Virus record (IMG/VR): IMGVR_UViG_3300044981_000204
Span: 1 to 64,000 of that record
Direction: 5' to 3' (one strand)
DNA from: a virus
DNA: 64,000 nucleotides
Shown: positions 20,860-62,497 of the stretch, piece by piece
How the letters are laid out: each line of letters starts with the position of its first letter
Position numbering within the stretch: the first letter of the stretch is position 1
The notes under the pieces: model-generated
What the model saw: the letters and a program-made list of their open reading frames with translations, nothing else
The model's database searches: none
What the model was told of the DNA's origin: nothing
Made by a program: the position numbers and the translations under genes

Positions 20860-20982
20860 ATGATCGAGGTTGGTCCCACCACTCAGATGATGATGGAGGG
20901 CGGACTTTTTTCGTCCGTTCTTTGGAAGGCTTCACCTGCGTCCATGGTTGTGCTTCTCTTTAGTGGAAAAAGCAATTCATGA
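20860..20982 (+). pseudogene. Truncated duplicate of the terL 5' end (40-aa leader ORF coupled to the endonuclease)
   Basis: MIEVGPTTQMMMEGGLFSSVLWKASPASM is 25/29 identical to the terL start at 21655; has an AGGAG SD; its TGA overlaps the endonuclease ATG (ATGA). Confidence 0.9.
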
Positions 20983-21662
20983 AAAAGTTTTTTTGTCGAA
21001 GTGATGTTTTTCAAGTGCTTACTCCTGAAGCTTGTTATTGGGCGGGAGTGTTGGCTTCAGATGGCTGTATTCGTATTAAGGGAAAAAACTCGCGAATAGT
21101 TGTATTGAAGGTCGATGATCGATCTTTGGTTGATTCATTCAAAAGTTTTCTTCAGTCTGAAGCAACAATCTTTTCGGGGGAAAGGTTTAATGGGAAGCAT
21201 TGGTACTTACTTCAAGTTTCTGATAGTCAGATTTTCTTTGACTTATGTACTCAGGGAATTGTCCCTAATAAGTCGTTGACTTTGAAAGTTTCTCAAAGAT
21301 TGGCCATGGACCGTGATTTTTGGCGAGGTGTCATGGATGGGGATGGTTGTCTTTGCATCAAGTCGAGTGGATACTTCTCCTTGCTGCTTTGCTCTGCTTC
21401 ATGGGATTTTATCCTTCAATTTAGTGATTTTCTTGGTAGTTTGGGAATTGTTCGTAAAATTACAGTTGATAGCCGTAAGCGTTCACCATTGTACAGTATT
21501 CAACTTTCTGGTTGGCAAGCTAGAACACTTGTTAAGGAGCTATACCGCGATTGTTGTATGGCTTTGGATAGGAAGTTGAGTATAGCTGAAGCAGTGATGG
21601 ATGCAAAAGGTGTACGGATGGTCGGCGTAACCGCTAAGGAGGAACTTGGGCATCATGATTGA
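20979..21662 (+). CDS. Free-standing double-motif LAGLIDADG homing endonuclease
   Basis: YWAGVLASDGCI and FWRGVMDGDGCL motifs, GIVPNKS, LDRK; visibly more AT-rich than the flanks. Confidence 0.9.
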   Translation: MKKFFCRSDVFQVLTPEACYWAGVLASDGCIRIKGKNSRIVVLKVDDRSLVDSFKSFLQSEATIFSGERFNGKHWYLLQVSDSQIFFDLCTQGIVPNKSLTLKVSQRLAMDRDFWRGVMDGDGCLCIKSSGYFSLLLCSASWDFILQFSDFLGSLGIVRKITVDSRKRSPLYSIQLSGWQARTLVKELYRDCCMALDRKLSIAEAVMDAKGVRMVGVTAKEELGHHD

Positions 21663-23325
21663 AGTCGGACCTACTACGCAAATGATGTTGGAGGATAGTA
21701 TGTTTTCATCTGTGCTTTGGAAGGCATCTCCTGCATCAATGGCCGTGAAATTGAGTGGTGGACAGTTTAAGACCTGGAATTATGTTCAGTTGTTGTCTAG
21801 GAAGTTGATTGATGTTGCAGTTGGTCGCTGTAGGCGATTGATAGTCGTGATGCCCCCGTGATCGCGTCATGGTAAATCAGAAATGGTCTCTAAGTGGTTT
21901 CCCGTGTGGTATTTGGAGACCTTCCAGGATAAGCGATTCATTTTAGCATCATACGAGATGGAGTTCGCGTCTAGGTGGGGGGCTAAGGCGAGGGACATAG
22001 TTGCTGAGAACCAGGACTTGTTAACATTGCGGTTTAAAGACAAGAATCCCGCTCGACATCACTGGGAGACAACAGCCGATGGTTCTATGGTGTGCGCAGG
22101 GGTTGGCGGCCCTCTTACCGGCAAAGGAGCCGATGTTTTAGTCATCGACGATCCGTGTAAGAACAGTGAGGAAGCTAACTCACTCACAATGAGGGAGAAA
22201 GCTTGGGATTGGTACACGTCGACCGCCAGGACAAGGTTGGAGCCCGGTGGTTCTATAGTGGTGATGTCCACTCGCTGGCATTCTGACGACTTAGTGGGTC
22301 GCCTCATCAATCCTGAGTTTTCTAGCAATAAGGGAGTAAGGGAGGAGTGGGAGGTGTTTTGTTTTCCTGCGTGTGCTGAACCGGAGTCTGAGAGGCACTA
22401 CCTCAACTTTGGCGCCAGGACCAATGACCTTAGGACCGGGGCTGTGTCTACGACTGCAGATCATAGGTCGAGGTCTATAAGGGACGTACTTGCTGAAGAA
22501 GCCAACCCAGAGTGGCGCGATATGTTAGGTCGCCGACGCGGACAGGCTTTGTGCCCCGATAGGTTCGACGAGGACGACCTGGCGAAGTTTCGCAGCGTTA
22601 GCCTTAGTGATTGGTTCGCAATGTATCAACAGCGCCCTGGGGATGAGGCCGATGAGGGGAACGTGTATCATCGGTTTGATGAAAAGACCCACTGCAGGCC
22701 GTTGAATCGCGAGGAAGGCATGCAGCTGTTTGTGGCGATGGACTTCAACGTCGACCCTATGTCGGTGCTGATTGGCCAGTACGACCGTGGTAGTGGGGTT
22801 CGTCAAATGGAGCGTTGCGAGTTCTTGGAGGAGCTTATACTTCCAAATAGCAACACCCCCTCCATGATGATGGAATTGCTGCAGCTGCTGAAGAAGTACC
22901 AGTACGGGTACACGCTTGAGGTTGAGGTGTATGGAGATGCTGCTGGTACCCAGAGGTCTTCGCAGAGCCAGAAGAGCAATTGGCAGATAGTTGCGGAGTA
23001 TTTCCAACTTGATGGAACCATACACTACGCCTTCCGTCGGCGCAAGGCAAACCCCATGATAGTGGACAGGGTCGGCGCAGTCAATACGATGCTTAAGTCG
23101 GCGGATGGCACCGTTAGGATGTGGGTAGATGACGTTAGGTGCCCCGAGTTGGTCAAGGACCTGAAAAAGGTTCGGTGGCAGGTTGATTCCGGAGGAAGTA
23201 GCACTGGACTCTTGGATAAGTCCGACAAGCGCCGAACGCACGTTAGTGACGCGGCAGGCTATGCTGTCGAGTACTTGTTCAGTTTGAGGGTTCGCGGCGG
23301 TGAGCGAAAAGGTATCTTACAATAG
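21655..23325 (+). CDS. terL: Terminase large subunit with in-frame TGA (21859-21861) inside the Walker A motif
   Basis: AAGGAGG SD and ATG 21655; LIVVMPP*SRHGKS, LTGKGADVLVIDDP (Walker B), STRWHSDDL, nuclease AMDFNVDP...HVSDAAGY. Both parts are in the same frame. Confidence 0.92.
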
Positions 23326-23847: not shown

Positions 23848-24226
23848 GCTATTGATCAAGGTTGAGTTGATCGACCACGTTGACCAGCGGTATCCTACGG
23901 CCGGGGACTGGCAATATGACCAGGACGGGGTCCTTTGCGTGAGGGTCTCAAACACCGGCATTGAGCTGGATTCTATCTTGGTCGGCATCCACGAGGTTGT
24001 CGAGGCTGTCCTTTGCAAGGTGCACGGGGTCAGGGAGGCGGACGTTGATGCGTTCGACTCGACATTCGCAGGCGATGGTGAACCTGGTGAAGACCCGTTA
24101 GCCCCGTACAGGAATGAGCACGCCGTGGCAGATGTCGTGGAACGAGCGGTTGCTCAGGCGGCTGGGGTGCCATGGGCGGAGTACAACGACAGGGTGGAGG
24201 GTTTGTTCGTTAAGGAGGACCGTTGA
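23837..24226 (+). CDS. Hypothetical protein with HExxE putative metal-binding motif
   Basis: QRYPTAGDW, IHEVVEAVLC, EPGEDPLAPYRNEH; coupled to the PurD-like gene. Confidence 0.7.
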   Translation: MTNKLLIKVELIDHVDQRYPTAGDWQYDQDGVLCVRVSNTGIELDSILVGIHEVVEAVLCKVHGVREADVDAFDSTFAGDGEPGEDPLAPYRNEHAVADVVERAVAQAAGVPWAEYNDRVEGLFVKEDR

Positions 24227-25563
24227 AGTTCCTTATTGTTAGCAATGCAGCAGAGGGTGCCCACATTGGCAAGATCATTGCTAACGAGGGCAACGACGTT
24301 GAGCTCTACATCCGTGAGCCGGGCTACCGCCAGTGCTGGAACGGGCTCCTTCCCAAGGCGAAGAAGATCAACCCGAGCAAGGACACGGTCGTGATATTCG
24401 ATCAGAGCGGCATGGGGGCCGAGGCGGATAAGTTGAAGAAAGCAGGCCATTTCGTGGTGGGGGCGTCCAAGTGGGCCGACCGGCTCGAACACGACCGTGA
24501 GTTCGGGTTCGAGGTCATGGAACAGTGCGGCATAAAGTTTCCGTTCACTACCGAGTTCGACGACTTTGGTCGGGTGGGAGAATTCTTGAAGGAGAATGAC
24601 GAAGACGATGATGGGTGCCCGAGGAGGTTCGTCTTCAAGCCCGAGGGCGACGACCTGCCGGCCCACCTGACATATTGCTCCCTTGACAGCGAGGACTTGT
24701 TGAAGTACCTTGAGTACGTGAAGAAGAACTACTCCAAATCGGTAAAGAACTTCATACTTCAGGAGTTCGTCGAGGGATCCGTGGTTTCGTCGGAGATGTG
24801 GTCCGACGGGTCCCGGTTCATCCGACCCTCGAACCACACGGTTGAGGCGAAGAAGTTCATGGACGGGGACCTTGGTCCCGCCACTGGTTGCAGTGGCAAC
24901 TTGGTCTGGGTTGAGGACGGATCTTGCAGGATCGTGTCGAATGGCATACTTAAGCTTGAGGAATTGGCTGCTGAGGAAGGTCACGTTGGACCCTTGGACC
25001 TCAATGCGGTCGTGAACGATGAGGGAGTTTTTGGCCTCGAGTGGACTCCCCGCTTTGGTTATGCTGCCACCCCCACTCTGATGTTCCTCATGCACGATGG
25101 ATCAATAGGTAAGTTCTTTAGTGATCTAGCAAGAGGCCAGGTGTCGGGGGATATGCCGCTGCGTGACATGTTTGCGGCGGCAATAACAGTGTCCATACCT
25201 CCTTATCCCTTAGAGGCGCCTAGCGTTGAGGATGTCCAGAGGGTTAGGCCAAACGTCGGAATACCTATAAGGGGGTTGGACAATAAGAATGCTGGCTCAT
25301 TCTACTTCTACGAGGTGGAGGAGCAAGATGGTCAGCTGCTCCACTCGACCGGTTCAGGCGCCCTCGGCCTGGCCGTGGGCGTCGGTGAAACCCCCTGGGA
25401 GGCCTTCCGTGGACCTTGTCACGCCTTGGGGGAGTTGATGGTGCCGGAAAAGCAGTACCGAACGGACCTATGTGAGGTTCTATCGTGGCAGTACGAGATG
25501 GTTGAGCACCAGGACGCCATGTCCCTAGGGACTTTGCCTGGTGTTGAGCTTGGGGCGGATTGA
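24223..25563 (+). CDS. PurD (GAR synthetase)-like ATP-grasp ligase
   Basis: LEHDREFG, FVFKP, FILQEFVEG, E-KKFMDGDLGPATGCSG, GPLDLN, LEWTPRFGY. Confidence 0.8.
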   Translation: MKFLIVSNAAEGAHIGKIIANEGNDVELYIREPGYRQCWNGLLPKAKKINPSKDTVVIFDQSGMGAEADKLKKAGHFVVGASKWADRLEHDREFGFEVMEQCGIKFPFTTEFDDFGRVGEFLKENDEDDDGCPRRFVFKPEGDDLPAHLTYCSLDSEDLLKYLEYVKKNYSKSVKNFILQEFVEGSVVSSEMWSDGSRFIRPSNHTVEAKKFMDGDLGPATGCSGNLVWVEDGSCRIVSNGILKLEELAAEEGHVGPLDLNAVVNDEGVFGLEWTPRFGYAATPTLMFLMHDGSIGKFFSDLARGQVSGDMPLRDMFAAAITVSIPPYPLEAPSVEDVQRVRPNVGIPIRGLDNKNAGSFYFYEVEEQDGQLLHSTGSGALGLAVGVGETPWEAFRGPCHALGELMVPEKQYRTDLCEVLSWQYEMVEHQDAMSLGTLPGVELGAD

Positions 25564-27248
25564 TGTCTTCAGCCATTAGTCCGATATTGTCGTTTCCAGC
25601 AAATTACATGAGCCAAGTGCTCAATGAGGGTGGTGCAGCTGGAGGACCTGGGCCAGGTAATGTAAAGGTGAAGGACCTCGACGTGAGGCATCCCGAGTAT
25701 GAGGCGAGGTACGGTGCTTGGTTGGACCTGAGCCTCTTGTATGAGGGTGGGGCGGCCCTCAAGGCCCAAGCTGACCGACTCTTGAAGAAGAGACCGAGGG
25801 AAGATGACGACGTCTATACGGCTCGATTGGACAGGTTCACATACCAGAACATACTAGGGACCGGGCTCGGTTGGTACGGGGCAGCGATGTTCGACACGGT
25901 TCCCGAATTCTTCTTCAACGGTGGATCTGGCTCAAAATTCTATACCGATTTTTTGCAAGATTGCGACGGAGTGGGCACGACGTACGTTGACTTCTTCAAG
26001 AGGGCGTTCCAGGCGCAGTTGACTTACGGCGCGTGTTGGGTTCTCACGGACTTGAGGTCTTTGGGAGAAGGCGAGGAGGAGCCCCGTACTTTAGAAGACC
26101 AGAGATCAAGGGGCTTACTGGATCCGCATGTGGCTTACTACACCCCACTGAACGTGATCAATTGGCAGGTGGACGCACTAGGTCAGCTTAGGTGGGCCGT
26201 GGTGAGGGTCGAGTCCCAGAGGCAGGAGTTCTTGGGTGAGCCCATGGTGGTCACCGCGTGGTACTACTACGACCGAGTTGGTTACAAGGTTTATGAGGAC
26301 GTGAGGAGCGTCGAGGAGCAGGTAAAGGTTGCTAGGGATGAGGGGAGGATGGCAAAATTGGTGAGGAGCGGTACCCATTGCCTGCAGCATGTGGAAAGGG
26401 TGCCTTTGAGGCGGTTGGCCTTGAGCGGTGGTCTGTGGATAGCCAACAGGTCCTACCTACTGTTGGTTGACCACTTGAACCAGGACAATACCCTCGGCTG
26501 GGCGCTGTTTATGTCCAACCTCGCTATGCCGGTGATAATTGGGGATTTTGATGCGTCGGGCATGACCGCTAATGAGGCGGGATTTATGCAGTTTCCTGCT
26601 GGCACGACCTATGAGTGGTCTGAGCCAGAGGGAAAGAGCTTCATACACTCGGCGAAGAGGGTTGAGTCGCTGCGCGAGGAATGCTTTAGGTCGATGAACT
26701 TGCAAGCCCAGGGCAGGAGCATGAAGGCCACTCCCGCTATGCAGTCGGGAAGGAGTAAGATCCTTGAGATGGCCCCCGCTAAGCAGATCTTAGCGGGGAT
26801 GGGGGACGACCTAAGGCAGCACATGCAAGATGTGCTGAACGATGTCAAGGACGCGCGCAGGGAACCCGAAGTGGAACCGGACGTTAGGGGGTTTAGCTTT
26901 CAGGACGACATGAGCACCGAGGAGGTGTTCGCCGTAAATTCTCTTATAAGCATGAAGATACCTTCCCCAACCCTGGAGCGCTACGTCTATAGGAAGGTAG
27001 CCAAGGCCTGGATGCCGGACGCCAACCGGGATCAACTCAAGAAAGTGTACGATGAGATCGAAGAGGGTCCAACTCGTGAGGAGAGGGAGAAGCAGGAATT
27101 AGGCGACCGTGTGGAGTTGGCAAGGTCGGGAATGGCGGAGGCCCTCAAGGATAAGGGACAACCCTTGCAACCTCCGGGTCGCGGGGGGTCGGGACCATCG
27201 GTAAAATCAAAGTCCGCGGGAAAGAGTACTAACGTAAAGGAGAAGTAG
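25563..27248 (+). CDS. Portal protein
   Basis: About 560 aa between terL and scaffold; HPEY...LYEGG...L--R--E-DD-Y-ARL and VINW pattern (DUF4055-like portal). Confidence 0.85.
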   Translation: MSSAISPILSFPANYMSQVLNEGGAAGGPGPGNVKVKDLDVRHPEYEARYGAWLDLSLLYEGGAALKAQADRLLKKRPREDDDVYTARLDRFTYQNILGTGLGWYGAAMFDTVPEFFFNGGSGSKFYTDFLQDCDGVGTTYVDFFKRAFQAQLTYGACWVLTDLRSLGEGEEEPRTLEDQRSRGLLDPHVAYYTPLNVINWQVDALGQLRWAVVRVESQRQEFLGEPMVVTAWYYYDRVGYKVYEDVRSVEEQVKVARDEGRMAKLVRSGTHCLQHVERVPLRRLALSGGLWIANRSYLLLVDHLNQDNTLGWALFMSNLAMPVIIGDFDASGMTANEAGFMQFPAGTTYEWSEPEGKSFIHSAKRVESLREECFRSMNLQAQGRSMKATPAMQSGRSKILEMAPAKQILAGMGDDLRQHMQDVLNDVKDARREPEVEPDVRGFSFQDDMSTEEVFAVNSLISMKIPSPTLERYVYRKVAKAWMPDANRDQLKKVYDEIEEGPTREEREKQELGDRVELARSGMAEALKDKGQPLQPPGRGGSGPSVKSKSAGKSTNVKEK

Positions 27249-61819: not shown

Positions 61820-62497
61820 ATGATTAGGCCAATGATCTTGTTGCTTGCGCCGTTGGCCCTAGCGGTGTCGCAGCCCACGGTGCAGCCCGGTGGCGTTCGC
61901 CATGTGACCGTCTCATTCAGCGCCCAGGGGGCGTTGGGGTCCTCCCTCACCGGGTTGAGCTTCACGGGCTATAGTGCCACGGTGTGCAGTGCAGATGGCC
62001 AGGGCATCGACGTGGGCGGTGGGAGGGTTTGGCAGGCGGCTGAGTCCTTGGGGTTGAGGCTCGTCACGCCCCACGTTGCCTCTCTAGCCGCAACACAAGC
62101 TAAGGCCAGATCAAAGTGGCAGATAATGGCCGTGTTGGGTGCTGAGCTGATGTTCGACATGGCCGTAGTAGCTGGCGCAGACATCGTTCACGTGAACCCT
62201 GCTAAGGTCGTTGGCAAGGTTTGGCGAATCACCCCAATCATCCTCAATAAGAAGCTGGGGGATTGGAACGCTCAGCAGGCCCTGGTCCACCCGGACCTGG
62301 TCTCATCCTTCGGAGACCTTGCCCTGTACCCGGACCACATCATCAGCGTGTCGTCCGGCGGAAACTGCCCACAGAGGCTGTTCCTCGCATCTTCGGGAGG
62401 ACCGGATGGTGGCTCGGTGGATCTGCAGATAGCTGTGCTGCCACCAGCAGTGGTGTTCGCCCCCACCCCACAAGCTGCTCCCGTTCTCGGGAAATAG
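61820..62497 (+). CDS. Hypothetical secreted protein
   Basis: MIRPMILLLAPLALA signal peptide; GAGGA SD. Confidence 0.65.
   Translation: MIRPMILLLAPLALAVSQPTVQPGGVRHVTVSFSAQGALGSSLTGLSFTGYSATVCSADGQGIDVGGGRVWQAAESLGLRLVTPHVASLAATQAKARSKWQIMAVLGAELMFDMAVVAGADIVHVNPAKVVGKVWRITPIILNKKLGDWNAQQALVHPDLVSSFGDLALYPDHIISVSSGGNCPQRLFLASSGGPDGGSVDLQIAVLPPAVVFAPTPQAAPVLGK

What the first reader, a model, noticed from the sequence alone, without database searches (positions are those of the whole stretch)
21841..21882. 6-nt stop-containing insert in the terminase Walker A: candidate minimal ribosomal bypass (stop-hop)
Seen: ATG CCC CCG TGA TCG CGT CAT GGT AAA TCA, which reads MPP*SRHGKS. Removing exactly 6 nt gives MPPRHGKS, the usual Walker A of this terminase type, and a 554-aa protein from ATG 21655. 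The stop is flanked by near-matched codons CCG (take-off) and TCG (landing, a G-U pair at position 1 for tRNA-Pro), which is the geometry of stop-hopping. The site also lies in the loop of a possible GU-rich stem (GTCGTGATGC / GCGTCATGGT). The rest of terL is intact, and the downstream ORF starting at 21883 would lack the P-loop lysine, so it cannot be a working ATPase alone. Plain read-through would leave two extra residues in the P-loop. Established: translational bypassing occurs in T4 gene 60, and hopping over stops between matched codons has been shown in E. coli. Inference: packaging here depends on, and may be throttled by, a 6-nt hop.
Basis: partly seen in the sequence, partly recalled or inferred. 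Interest (0 to 1): 0.92.

Follow-up and report, generated by a model that had tools for sequence, protein, structure and literature searches.

The report
Stop-containing mini-insert in terminase P-loop
A soil phage's essential DNA-packaging gene is cut in its ATP-binding loop by six extra bases holding a stop codon, related phages are cut at the same spot, and the likeliest way to make the working enzyme is for the ribosome to hop over the insert.

Summary
terL (21655-23325) has one in-frame TGA (21859-61). Fifteen of 15 relatives spanning the site read MPP-RHGKS without the two extra codons. A second assembler reproduces the site exactly.

The break is not private to this window. A phage about 65% identical in DNA, seen in four contigs, carries CCG TAG T CCG CGC at the same place. 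That is a 7-nt gap with identical take-off and landing codons and a frame change, so readthrough cannot rescue it. Ten distinct 68-70-aa N-fragments from public assemblies (one of them the window's own), plus that phage's, end exactly at ...PP-stop. Their downstream ORFs are intact.

No other related locus has any insertion between PP and RHGKS (151 of 151). No suppressor tRNA, intron, integrase or second terL was found.

Best reading (0.6): a programmed 6/7-nt hop of peptidyl-tRNA-Pro over the stop. No protein product was seen.

The proposed stem is not conserved. The link to the upstream homing endonuclease is suggestive only.

Closest precedent: the 7-10-nt terminase bypass of Streptomyces phage Hau3. 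A 2016 review says no natural stop-hop is known.

The scan's other notes concern this same window only.

The parts
21655..21858 (+). terL segment 1: 68 codons, ending ...LIVVMPP. The last codon, CCG 21856-21858, is the proposed take-off codon.
   Evidence: ORF and translation. Aligns to residues 1-68 of full-length relatives. The same 68-70-aa fragment ends at PP in 9 other database proteins and in L006.
21859..21861 (+). In-frame TGA directly after Pro-Pro. It is the proposed slow A-site codon that triggers take-off.
   Evidence: L006 has TAG at the same position.
21859..21864 (+). The 6-nt coding gap TGATCG, absent from relatives. TCG 21862-21864 is the proposed landing triplet (G-U at position 1 for tRNA-Pro).
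   Evidence: Two empty alignment columns in 15 of 15 spanning relatives. Codon-level comparison with L003, L004, L005, L083, L009, L087 and L089.
21865..23325 (+). terL segment 2: it resumes at CGT (Arg of RHGKS), holds the rest of the ATPase and the nuclease domain, and stops at 23323-25.
   Evidence: There is no further stop in 486 codons.
21845..21872 (+). Possible hairpin (arms 21845-53 and 21864-72) with take-off codon and stop in the loop. Weak, and not conserved.
   Evidence: -11.7 kcal/mol, z -1.47, 14 of 200 shuffles as good. L006 has no equivalent (z +0.22).
20979..21662 (+). Free-standing LAGLIDADG homing endonuclease gene, overlapping the terL start by 8 nt. Context only; a possible partner of the insert.
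   Evidence: PF14528 E 1.3e-9 and phrog_4645 E 3.5e-27. GC is 0.36-0.43 against about 0.55 in the flanks. A 40%-identical homologue sits at the same place in L083.
20860..21045 (+). Decayed duplicate of the terL 5' end, upstream of and overlapping the endonuclease gene.
   Evidence: (57% identity to residues 1-58, one TGA).

Best explanation
The 6 nt TGATCG are a real, heritable, non-coding gap inside the Walker A (P-loop) codons of an otherwise intact large terminase gene.

Proposed mechanism:
- The ribosome reads ...Met-Pro-Pro and arrives with peptidyl-tRNA-Pro on CCG in the P site and UGA in the A site.
- Release at Pro-Pro-stop is slow (recalled knowledge).
- In a fraction of ribosomes the tRNA lets go of CCG, the mRNA slips 6 nt, and the anticodon re-pairs with UCG (two Watson-Crick pairs plus G-U).
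- Decoding resumes at CGU, giving the canonical ...MPPRHGKS... 554-aa TerL.
- The remaining ribosomes terminate and make a 68-aa peptide.

The same device exists in relatives as a 7-nt gap, CCG UAG U CCG, where take-off and landing codons are identical.

Shown: the insert, its recurrence at the same site, the stop, the matched triplets, and the intact flanks. Inferred: the hop itself, its efficiency, and why the insert is kept. The likeliest reasons for keeping it are protection of this conserved DNA site from a homing endonuclease or intein, or a limit on TerL dosage.
For: 1. Two diverged DNA alleles share the logic. Their terL DNA is about 65% identical.
- Window: CCG TGA TCG CGT.
- L006 family: CCG TAG T CCG CGC.
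- The stop is kept although its letters differ.
- The triplet just 5' of the Arg codon pairs with a CCG-reading tRNA in both.
- Gap lengths are 6 and 7 nt, so only a hop gives the same product in both.

2. The L006 allele is in four contigs that differ by 1-3 SNPs over about 7 kb. Its 434-aa downstream ORF (P0067) is on record on 11 contigs.

3. Of 12 short proteins matching the N-terminal profile, 10 end exactly at PP: the window's own plus 9 others, 57-71% identical to it. L006's own fragment adds an eleventh. Six of them share a longest-contig length with a C-fragment that starts at the first start codon after RHGKSE.

4. The only lesion is at this site. The flanks are open for 68 and 486 codons here, and for 472-491 aa in relatives.

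5. PP-to-[RQG]HGKS has no insertion in 151 of 151 other related loci that cover it (some loci are the same contig fetched twice). A 2-3-residue longer loop made by readthrough or frameshift has no natural counterpart.

6. The 120-kb record has no second terL and no tRNA other than one doubtful call. Other genes are long and open under table 11. There is no integrase or resolvase, and no relatives in 185,579 species genomes.

7. Precedent:
- 7-10-nt bypass in the phage Hau3 and prophage terminase genes, with an MS junction peptide (PMC10732093, passages read).
- Synthetic stop-hops where 9 nt give one residue (PMC5009743, passages read).
Against: - No protein, RNA or raw-read data: only contigs could be laid.
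- Only two alleles could be read as DNA.
- In this window the landing triplet is UCG, not CCG, and the gap is in frame. Low-level UGA readthrough would also give a full-length chain here.
- Un-stimulated stop-hops in E. coli are described as low-level (bioRxiv 10.1101/2024.12.09.627546, passage read).
- No conserved stimulator was found. The hairpin is not significant and not shared, and I saw no shared SD-like element in the sequences.
- The repeated CCG or CG could be a by-product of how the insert arose (a short target duplication) rather than a selected landing site.
- L006 also offers a CCC_C +1 slip.
Confidence: 0.6

Rival explanations
1. A different recoding event occurs in each allele, and TerL tolerates a longer P-loop. 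In the window, UGA is read through (for example as Trp) to give MPPWSRHGKS. In L006, a +1 slip on CCC_C, or a -2 slip at CCG with UAG in the A site, gives MP(P)RSPRHGKS.
For: The window's gap is in frame. L006 has a CCC_C run just before the stop, and its +1 frame is open through RSPRHGKS. CCC_N +1 slippage by tRNA-Pro is known (recalled).
Against: This needs two unrelated mechanisms for what looks like one homologous feature. The products would carry 2-3 extra residues in a loop whose length is invariant in 151 of 151 other related loci and in 15 of 15 close relatives. No suppressor tRNA was found.
Confidence: 0.12
2. These are dead alleles. The insert is a repair scar or footprint at a site repeatedly cut by a homing endonuclease or intein. 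The genomes are defective, or are carried by co-infecting helpers.
For: This terL clade is full of selfish elements:
- A LAGLIDADG gene abuts terL here and in L083.
- Inteins sit 12 nt downstream, after RHGK, in P0037 and P0098.
- The short direct repeats (CCG...CCG, CG...CG) look like a footprint.
- Split rows are scattered over the tree (7 changes among 58 rows).
Against: - A stop follows PP in all 11 N-fragments, where a random triplet would be a stop 3 times in 64.
- No second lesion appears in any allele.
- The same broken allele recurs with 1-3 SNPs in four contigs, and its C-fragment on 11 contigs.
- The record is 92% complete, has no integrase or resolvase and no second terL.
- The clade is absent from species genomes, so it is not a decaying prophage family.
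Confidence: 0.18
3. The 6 nt are removed before translation, by RNA editing, a tiny splice or DNA heterogeneity, or they are an assembly artefact.
For: CGTGAT is repeated 11 nt upstream, which could mislead an assembler or allow slippage.
Against: A second assembler gives the identical sequence at depth about 25. An analogous insert is found in four other assemblies. No intron or RNA family was found. I recall no splicing system that removes 6-7 nt.
Confidence: 0.05

Closest known systems
Proposed bypass of 10-nt (Hau3) and 7-nt (StrepC.1 and S. catenulae prophage) inserts in Streptomyces phage terminase genes (PMC10732093; passages read)
   Same: It is the same gene class, the large terminase. 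The inserts are very short and sit in a highly conserved junction. The flanks match contiguous sequence in relatives. A slow A-site codon lies at the 5' end of the gap. The same argument applies that frameshift products would add residues to an invariant motif. The paper's g6/g7 junction reads ...KGWG|KD..., which looks like a GK-type loop; that is my reading, not the paper's.
   Different: There the trigger is the rare sense codon UUA and the proposed role is sensing host tRNA state. Only 3 of 100 terminase genes surveyed carried it. Here the trigger is a true stop after Pro-Pro, the gaps are 6-7 nt, the terminase family differs (Terminase_6N clade), the hosts are unknown soil bacteria, and at least 11 lineages carry it.
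Synthetic 'stop-hops' in E. coli (Weiss et al. 1987, as cited in PMC5009743 and bioRxiv 10.1101/2024.12.09.627546; passages read)
   Same: The geometry is identical: codon, stop, then a matching codon, so that 9 nt specify one residue. No stimulatory signal is needed.
   Different: Those were engineered and low-level. The 2016 review states that no natural in-frame stop-hopping occurrences are known. Here it would be natural, essential and conserved. The window's landing codon is a near match (UCG) rather than an exact one.
Phage T4 gene 60 bypass with the MobA homing-endonuclease element (bioRxiv 10.1101/2022.08.31.505936; passages read)
   Same: There are take-off and landing codons with a stop right after take-off. 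An insert lies in a conserved coding site next to a homing endonuclease. The element supplies a replacement copy of the interrupted gene segment, as the duplicated terL 5' end does here. Some genomes keep the bypass after losing the endonuclease, as L006 does.
   Different: The T4 gap is 50 nt and needs a nascent-peptide signal and stem-loops, with about 50% efficiency. Its endonuclease is HNH, not LAGLIDADG. Here no stimulators were found, and the endonuclease-insert link is not consistent: L083 has the endonuclease but no insert.
Mitochondrial 'byps' of Magnusiomyces capitatus (mentioned in PMC5009743; passage read)
   Same: Many short non-coding inserts are corrected by translation, and they may be mobile.
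   Different: Those are 27-55 nt (length recalled), lie in many genes of a mitochondrial system, and are not confined to one site.
+1 frameshifting at a proline codon before a stop (Listeria phage PSA capsid and tail genes, CCC UGA; recalled, no paper opened)
   Same: Peptidyl-tRNA-Pro sits in the P site with a stop in the A site, in a phage late gene.
   Different: That is a 1-nt slip onto an overlapping codon to make a second, longer product. Here a non-overlapping re-pairing 6-7 nt downstream is needed to make the only functional product.

Membership tests
Large terminase subunit (Terminase_6N / phrog_38) | Sequence match to the family models over the ATPase and nuclease parts | tested here: met
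   PF03237 E 6.7e-9 (36.1 bits against a cut-off of 22). phrog_38 E 2.7e-53. phrog_10250 matches the C-terminal part. Relatives of about 550 aa are up to 74% identical.
Large terminase subunit (Terminase_6N / phrog_38) | Intact Walker A GK[ST] loop in one reading frame | tested here: not met
   The loop is split by TGA TCG between PP and RHGKS. It is met only if the 6 nt are skipped.
Stop-hop (short translational bypass over a stop) | [quoted passage not shown] | tested here: met
   CCG TGA here and CCG TAG in L006. All 11 N-fragments end right after PP.
Stop-hop (short translational bypass over a stop) | A landing triplet able to pair with the same peptidyl-tRNA, placed so that the next codon restores the protein | tested here: met
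   L006 has CCG...CCG|CGC, an exact match. The window has CCG...UCG|CGU, matching at positions 2 and 3 with G-U possible at position 1. The other lineages could not be read as DNA.
Stop-hop (short translational bypass over a stop) | A single protein product lacking the gap-encoded residues | not testable with these tools
   No proteomic or reporter data. No RNA run was listed.
T4 gene 60-type programmed bypass | A take-off stem-loop and other mRNA structures | tested here: not met
   The window hairpin has z -1.47 with 14 of 200 shuffles as good. L006 has z +0.22 and a different fold.
T4 gene 60-type programmed bypass | A nascent-peptide stimulator specific to bypassing alleles | tested here: inconclusive
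   The upstream LLSRKL..GRC.RLIV.MPP is conserved equally in interrupted and uninterrupted genes. Nothing is specific to the interrupted ones.
Homing endonuclease plus bypass cassette (MobA-like) | The endonuclease gene and the insert travel together | tested here: inconclusive
   Window: endonuclease and insert both present. L083: endonuclease present, insert absent. L006: insert present, with the endonuclease homologue about 6 kb away. L003, L004, L005 and L009: neither. The low-GC tract from the endonuclease gene runs on to about 21890, just past the insert.
Homing endonuclease plus bypass cassette (MobA-like) | The insert protects the DNA site from cleavage | not testable with these tools
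   Needs a cleavage assay. The window's endonuclease is not similar to the intein endonucleases (E 0.12 and 1.4).
Stop-codon reassignment (TGA as sense) | Many genes carry in-frame TGA; a suppressor tRNA is present | tested here: not met
   Long ORFs of up to 2460 aa are open under table 11. No suppressor tRNA. Rfam gave 0 hits. L006 uses TAG and changes frame.

The most novel reading that the evidence does not exclude
This would be the first natural family of 'stop-hops'. A clade of soil phages makes its only terminase ATPase by letting peptidyl-tRNA-Pro jump 6 or 7 nt over a stop placed inside the P-loop codons. It uses nothing but the intrinsic slowness of Pro-Pro-stop termination and a matching downstream triplet. 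The mini-insert persists and spreads patchily because it spoils a conserved DNA target of homing endonucleases or inteins. It would then be a minimal, 6-7-nt analogue of the T4 MobA/gene 60 cassette.
Probability: 0.5. Interest if true: 0.9.

Novelty: new variant of a known kind. Interest (0 to 1): 0.8.

Why it matters
Programmed bypassing is known from very few natural systems: T4 gene 60 and its relatives, yeast mitochondrial byps, and the candidate Hau3 terminase. The 2016 recoding review states that no natural in-frame stop-hop is known (PMC5009743).

Here an essential gene seems to depend on the smallest possible hop, and several diverged lineages offer natural variants: stop identity, gap lengths of 6 and 7 nt, and exact versus wobble landing. 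That gives a ready comparative and experimental system for asking what minimal signals let a ribosome skip bases, and whether Pro-Pro-stop pausing is enough.

It also bears on annotation. Such terL genes are now called as two ORFs or as pseudogenes, and genomes with them may be wrongly scored as defective.

If the insert proves to block endonuclease or intein homing, it would show how selfish-element conflict can force recoding into core genes.

Tried and rejected
- TGA reassignment or a phage suppressor tRNA: rejected. ORFs are long under table 11. ARAGORN finds only a doubtful 'tRNA-???' and a permuted tmRNA call, and Rfam has 0 gathering hits.
- A group I intron around the endonuclease gene or the site: no hit. 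The only E<1 match is a chance sRNA.
- A conserved take-off hairpin: not supported.
- A split two-chain terminase: rejected. No start codon precedes RHGKS in either allele, so a C-fragment would lack the P-loop.
- A second terL: none in the record.
- A prophage or temperate lifestyle: no integrase or resolvase, and no relatives in genome contigs.
- The endonuclease being derived from the terL inteins: not supported.
- More DNA alleles were sought in three places.
  - IMG/VR, by two DNA patterns and by two protein profiles: only the L006 family carries the break. Five of the 8 pattern hits are chance.
  - Metagenome contigs: L084 only.
  - Species genomes, by pattern: 12 hits, none with terL context.
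- A sequence search of solved structures gave only marginal T7-type TerL matches at the Walker B (E 0.24; none at 0.001). The P-loop assignment therefore rests on the GK[ST] motif, on the Pfam match starting at RHGKS, and on recalled knowledge.
- The profile search of 1.84 billion representatives added no PP-stop fragment outside this clade. The short hits I fetched (10 of 90) run through an intact PPRHGKS.
- RNA evidence: no RNA holder listed.
- Raw reads: only Logan contigs were available, so read-level heterogeneity could not be checked.
- Supplements of PMC10732093 (gap sequences, take-off and landing codons of Hau3) were not opened and may bear on the comparison.
- Print searches for a natural stop-hop or a terminase P-loop stop found nothing beyond the papers cited. 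The library lacks most subscription journals.
- Pro-Pro-stop pausing: one search and one paper look-up gave no usable passage, so it is cited as recalled.
- Tree caveats. I left out 10 intein-bearing proteins, all rows under 430 aa, and 6 rows without my anchor motif (P0043, P0049, P0063, P0066, P0067, P0074). P0068 was labelled 'split' by my script but is only a contig-edge partial, so the true count is 8 split rows. The tree is 'quick', LG+G4.
Full report
**What is there**

The window comes from a 120,021-bp virus record rated 92% complete. Positions 21655-23325 encode a large terminase subunit: PF03237 E 6.7e-9, phrog_38 E 2.7e-53.

The frame is open except for one TGA at 21859-61. It reads ...LIVVMPP*SRHGKSEMVSKWF.... 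RHGKS is the GK[ST] signature of the P-loop, and the Pfam match begins at that residue. VLVIDD, about 90 residues on, aligns to the Walker B of T7-type TerL (marginal).

In an alignment with relatives 59-74% identical, all 15 rows that span the site read [ML][PT]P-RHGKS with nothing in the two columns of TGA TCG.

**Is it an artefact?**

Logan's independent assembly of run X1 contains the stretch 21400-22600 in a 117,753-nt contig. There are no differences, and word depth is 24.8. X1 may be the source sample, so this excludes an assembler quirk but not a read-level minority.

The remaining genes are long and open under table 11, up to 2460 aa. There is no general loss of reading frames and no TGA reassignment.

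**The decisive comparison**

Among loci fetched from IMG/VR and metagenomes, one phage is represented by L006, L007, L008 and L084. These differ by 1-3 SNPs over about 7 kb. L285 and L287 are re-fetches of the contigs of L006 and L008.

Its terL DNA is about 65% identical to the window's. It reads ATG CCC CCG TAG T CCG CGC CAC GGC AAA AGT:
- The upstream frame ends MPP-TAG.
- RHGKS continues in the +1 frame.
- No start codon precedes RHGKS.

So a 7-nt gap sits at exactly the same codon boundary. It again begins with a stop (TAG instead of TGA), and the take-off codon CCG is repeated exactly as the triplet before the Arg codon.

Readthrough cannot rescue this allele. A hop of peptidyl-tRNA-Pro from CCG to CCG gives MPPRHGKS. 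The window's CCG TGA TCG CGT fits the same scheme, with a 6-nt move and a landing triplet that matches at positions 2 and 3 and can form G-U at position 1.

**How widespread is it?**

I therefore searched the protein database for short proteins matching a profile of the TerL N-terminus. Of the 12 hits:
- Ten end exactly at ...[VCT][MLE]PP: P0122 (the window's own), P0123-P0129, P0131 and P0133.
- One (P0130) ends four residues earlier and may be a contig end.
- One (P0132) is a contig-edge piece with an intact loop.

With L006's own fragment that makes 11 distinct N-fragments. The ten from relatives are 57-71% identical to the window's (63% for L006's by tblastn).

Six of them share their longest-contig length with a C-fragment that begins at the first start codon after RHGKSE. 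One partner begins just inside a Walker-A intein. The pairs are:
- P0125 / P0057
- P0127 / P0053
- P0123 / P0069
- P0131 / P0073
- P0128 / P0065
- P0133 / P0078

This pairing is an inference from equal lengths, not a seen contig. The C-fragments are intact for 472-491 aa.

A profile search of 1.84 billion representatives found no such fragment outside this clade.

On a quick tree of 58 C-terminal cores the interrupted genes are scattered among whole ones. The script's 9 'split' labels needed 7 changes, 6 of them forced by starred branches. One label, P0068, is only a partial.

**Why a hop rather than something else**

- The spacing between PP and [RQG]HGKS shows no insertion in 151 of 151 other related loci that cover it. 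These run down to about 30% identity, and some are the same contig fetched from two collections. Products with 2-3 extra loop residues therefore have no natural counterpart. Those products would be MPPWSRHGKS by readthrough here, and MP(P)RSPRHGKS by a +1 or -2 slip in L006.
- One mechanism explains both alleles. The rivals need two.
- The stop is conserved as a stop while its letters change.
- Each allele carries no other lesion.
- There is no suppressor tRNA, no intron, no second terL, no integrase or resolvase, and no relative in 185,579 species genomes. That argues against decaying prophages.
- From recalled knowledge, termination after C-terminal Pro-Pro is unusually slow in bacteria. That would give the pause a hop needs. 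I found no usable passage for this.

**What is not supported**

- The proposed GU-rich stem folds at -11.7 kcal/mol, but 14 of 200 shuffles do as well, and L006 has no equivalent.
- I saw no shared SD-like element. The window's GUGAU, 4 nt before the take-off codon, resembles part of an extended SD, but L006 lacks it.
- Efficiency and any 'throttling' are unknown.

**Context: selfish elements**

A LAGLIDADG endonuclease gene (20979-21662) overlaps the terL start. It is preceded by a decayed copy of the terL 5' end.

GC is 0.36-0.43 in that gene and 0.44-0.45 in the first 240 nt of terL (GC3 0.45-0.47). It rises to GC3 0.50-0.75 from 21895 on, just past the insert. This fits a co-acquired unit of endonuclease, replacement 5' end and insert, much like the MobA/HomR/bypass element of T4-like phages (bioRxiv 10.1101/2022.08.31.505936).

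The relatives do not bear this out cleanly:
- L083 has a 40%-identical endonuclease at the same place with an uninterrupted loop.
- L006 has the insert, with its endonuclease homologue about 6 kb away.
- Four other loci have neither.

Inteins occur in this clade 12 nt downstream of the insert, after RHGK (P0037, P0098). They also occur at a second site after VKN (P0032, P0048). One lineage (P0133/P0078) seems to carry both intein and stop.

The protection idea is plausible but untested.

**Comparison with what is known**

- The nearest precedent is the Streptomyces phage Hau3 terminase. It has two 10-nt frame-disrupting inserts headed by the rare UUA; two prophages carry 7-nt versions. A junction peptide was seen by mass spectrometry in E. 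coli when UUA was replaced by UAA (PMC10732093, passages read).
- Synthetic stop-hops, where 9 nt give one residue, have been known since 1987.
- The 2016 review states that no natural occurrences of in-frame stop hopping are known (PMC5009743).
- My four searches of the held library found no later report.

I therefore class this as a new variant of a known kind: natural, stop-triggered, 6-7 nt, in the P-loop of a different terminase family, and present in many lineages.

**Verdict**

The hop itself is inferred at confidence 0.6. The rivals are other recoding (0.12), dead alleles (0.18), and removal before translation or artefact (0.05).

Noticed in passing
window 20860-21662: A free-standing LAGLIDADG endonuclease gene is flanked by two copies of the terL 5' end. 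The upstream copy is decayed (57% identity over residues 1-58, with a TGA). The endonuclease ORF overlaps the real terL start by 8 nt. This is also the subject of earlier notes e1-6163100 and e1-6163101.
   Followed up: partly
window 24223-25563: A 446-aa ATP-grasp protein (GARS_A, E 8.7e-7, just above the cut-off) lies between terL and the portal gene (25560-27248, phrog_145).
   Followed up: no
window 62249-62345 (- strand): ARAGORN calls a 97-nt 'tRNA-???' with a four-base anticodon (aagg). Rfam finds no tRNA there, so it is probably a false call. A tRNA with an expanded anticodon would matter for hopping, so it deserves one look.
   Followed up: partly
G000 108606-109052 (outside the window): ARAGORN calls a permuted tmRNA with tag AAKKVVTMPVRPRVQPLVLAYAA. 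Not checked further.
   Followed up: no
relatives P0037, P0098, P0054, P0078, P0094; P0032, P0044, P0048, P0071: The terL clade carries inteins at two sites. One is after RHGK in the Walker A; these inteins start with non-Cys residues (E or P in the two whole examples). The other is after ...DDxVKN, near the Walker B.
   Followed up: partly
L083:3303-3989 and L287:8850-9449: Homologues of the window's endonuclease (40% and 36% identity). One lies directly upstream of an uninterrupted terL. The other lies about 6 kb downstream of the interrupted terL of the L006 phage.
   Followed up: partly
protein P0089 (relative, 62% identity): One source names it as a partial terminase of a 'Candidatus Sulfotelmatobacter' MAG, and run X1 is labelled soil metagenome. 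This is a weak hint that hosts may be soil Acidobacteriota.
   Followed up: no
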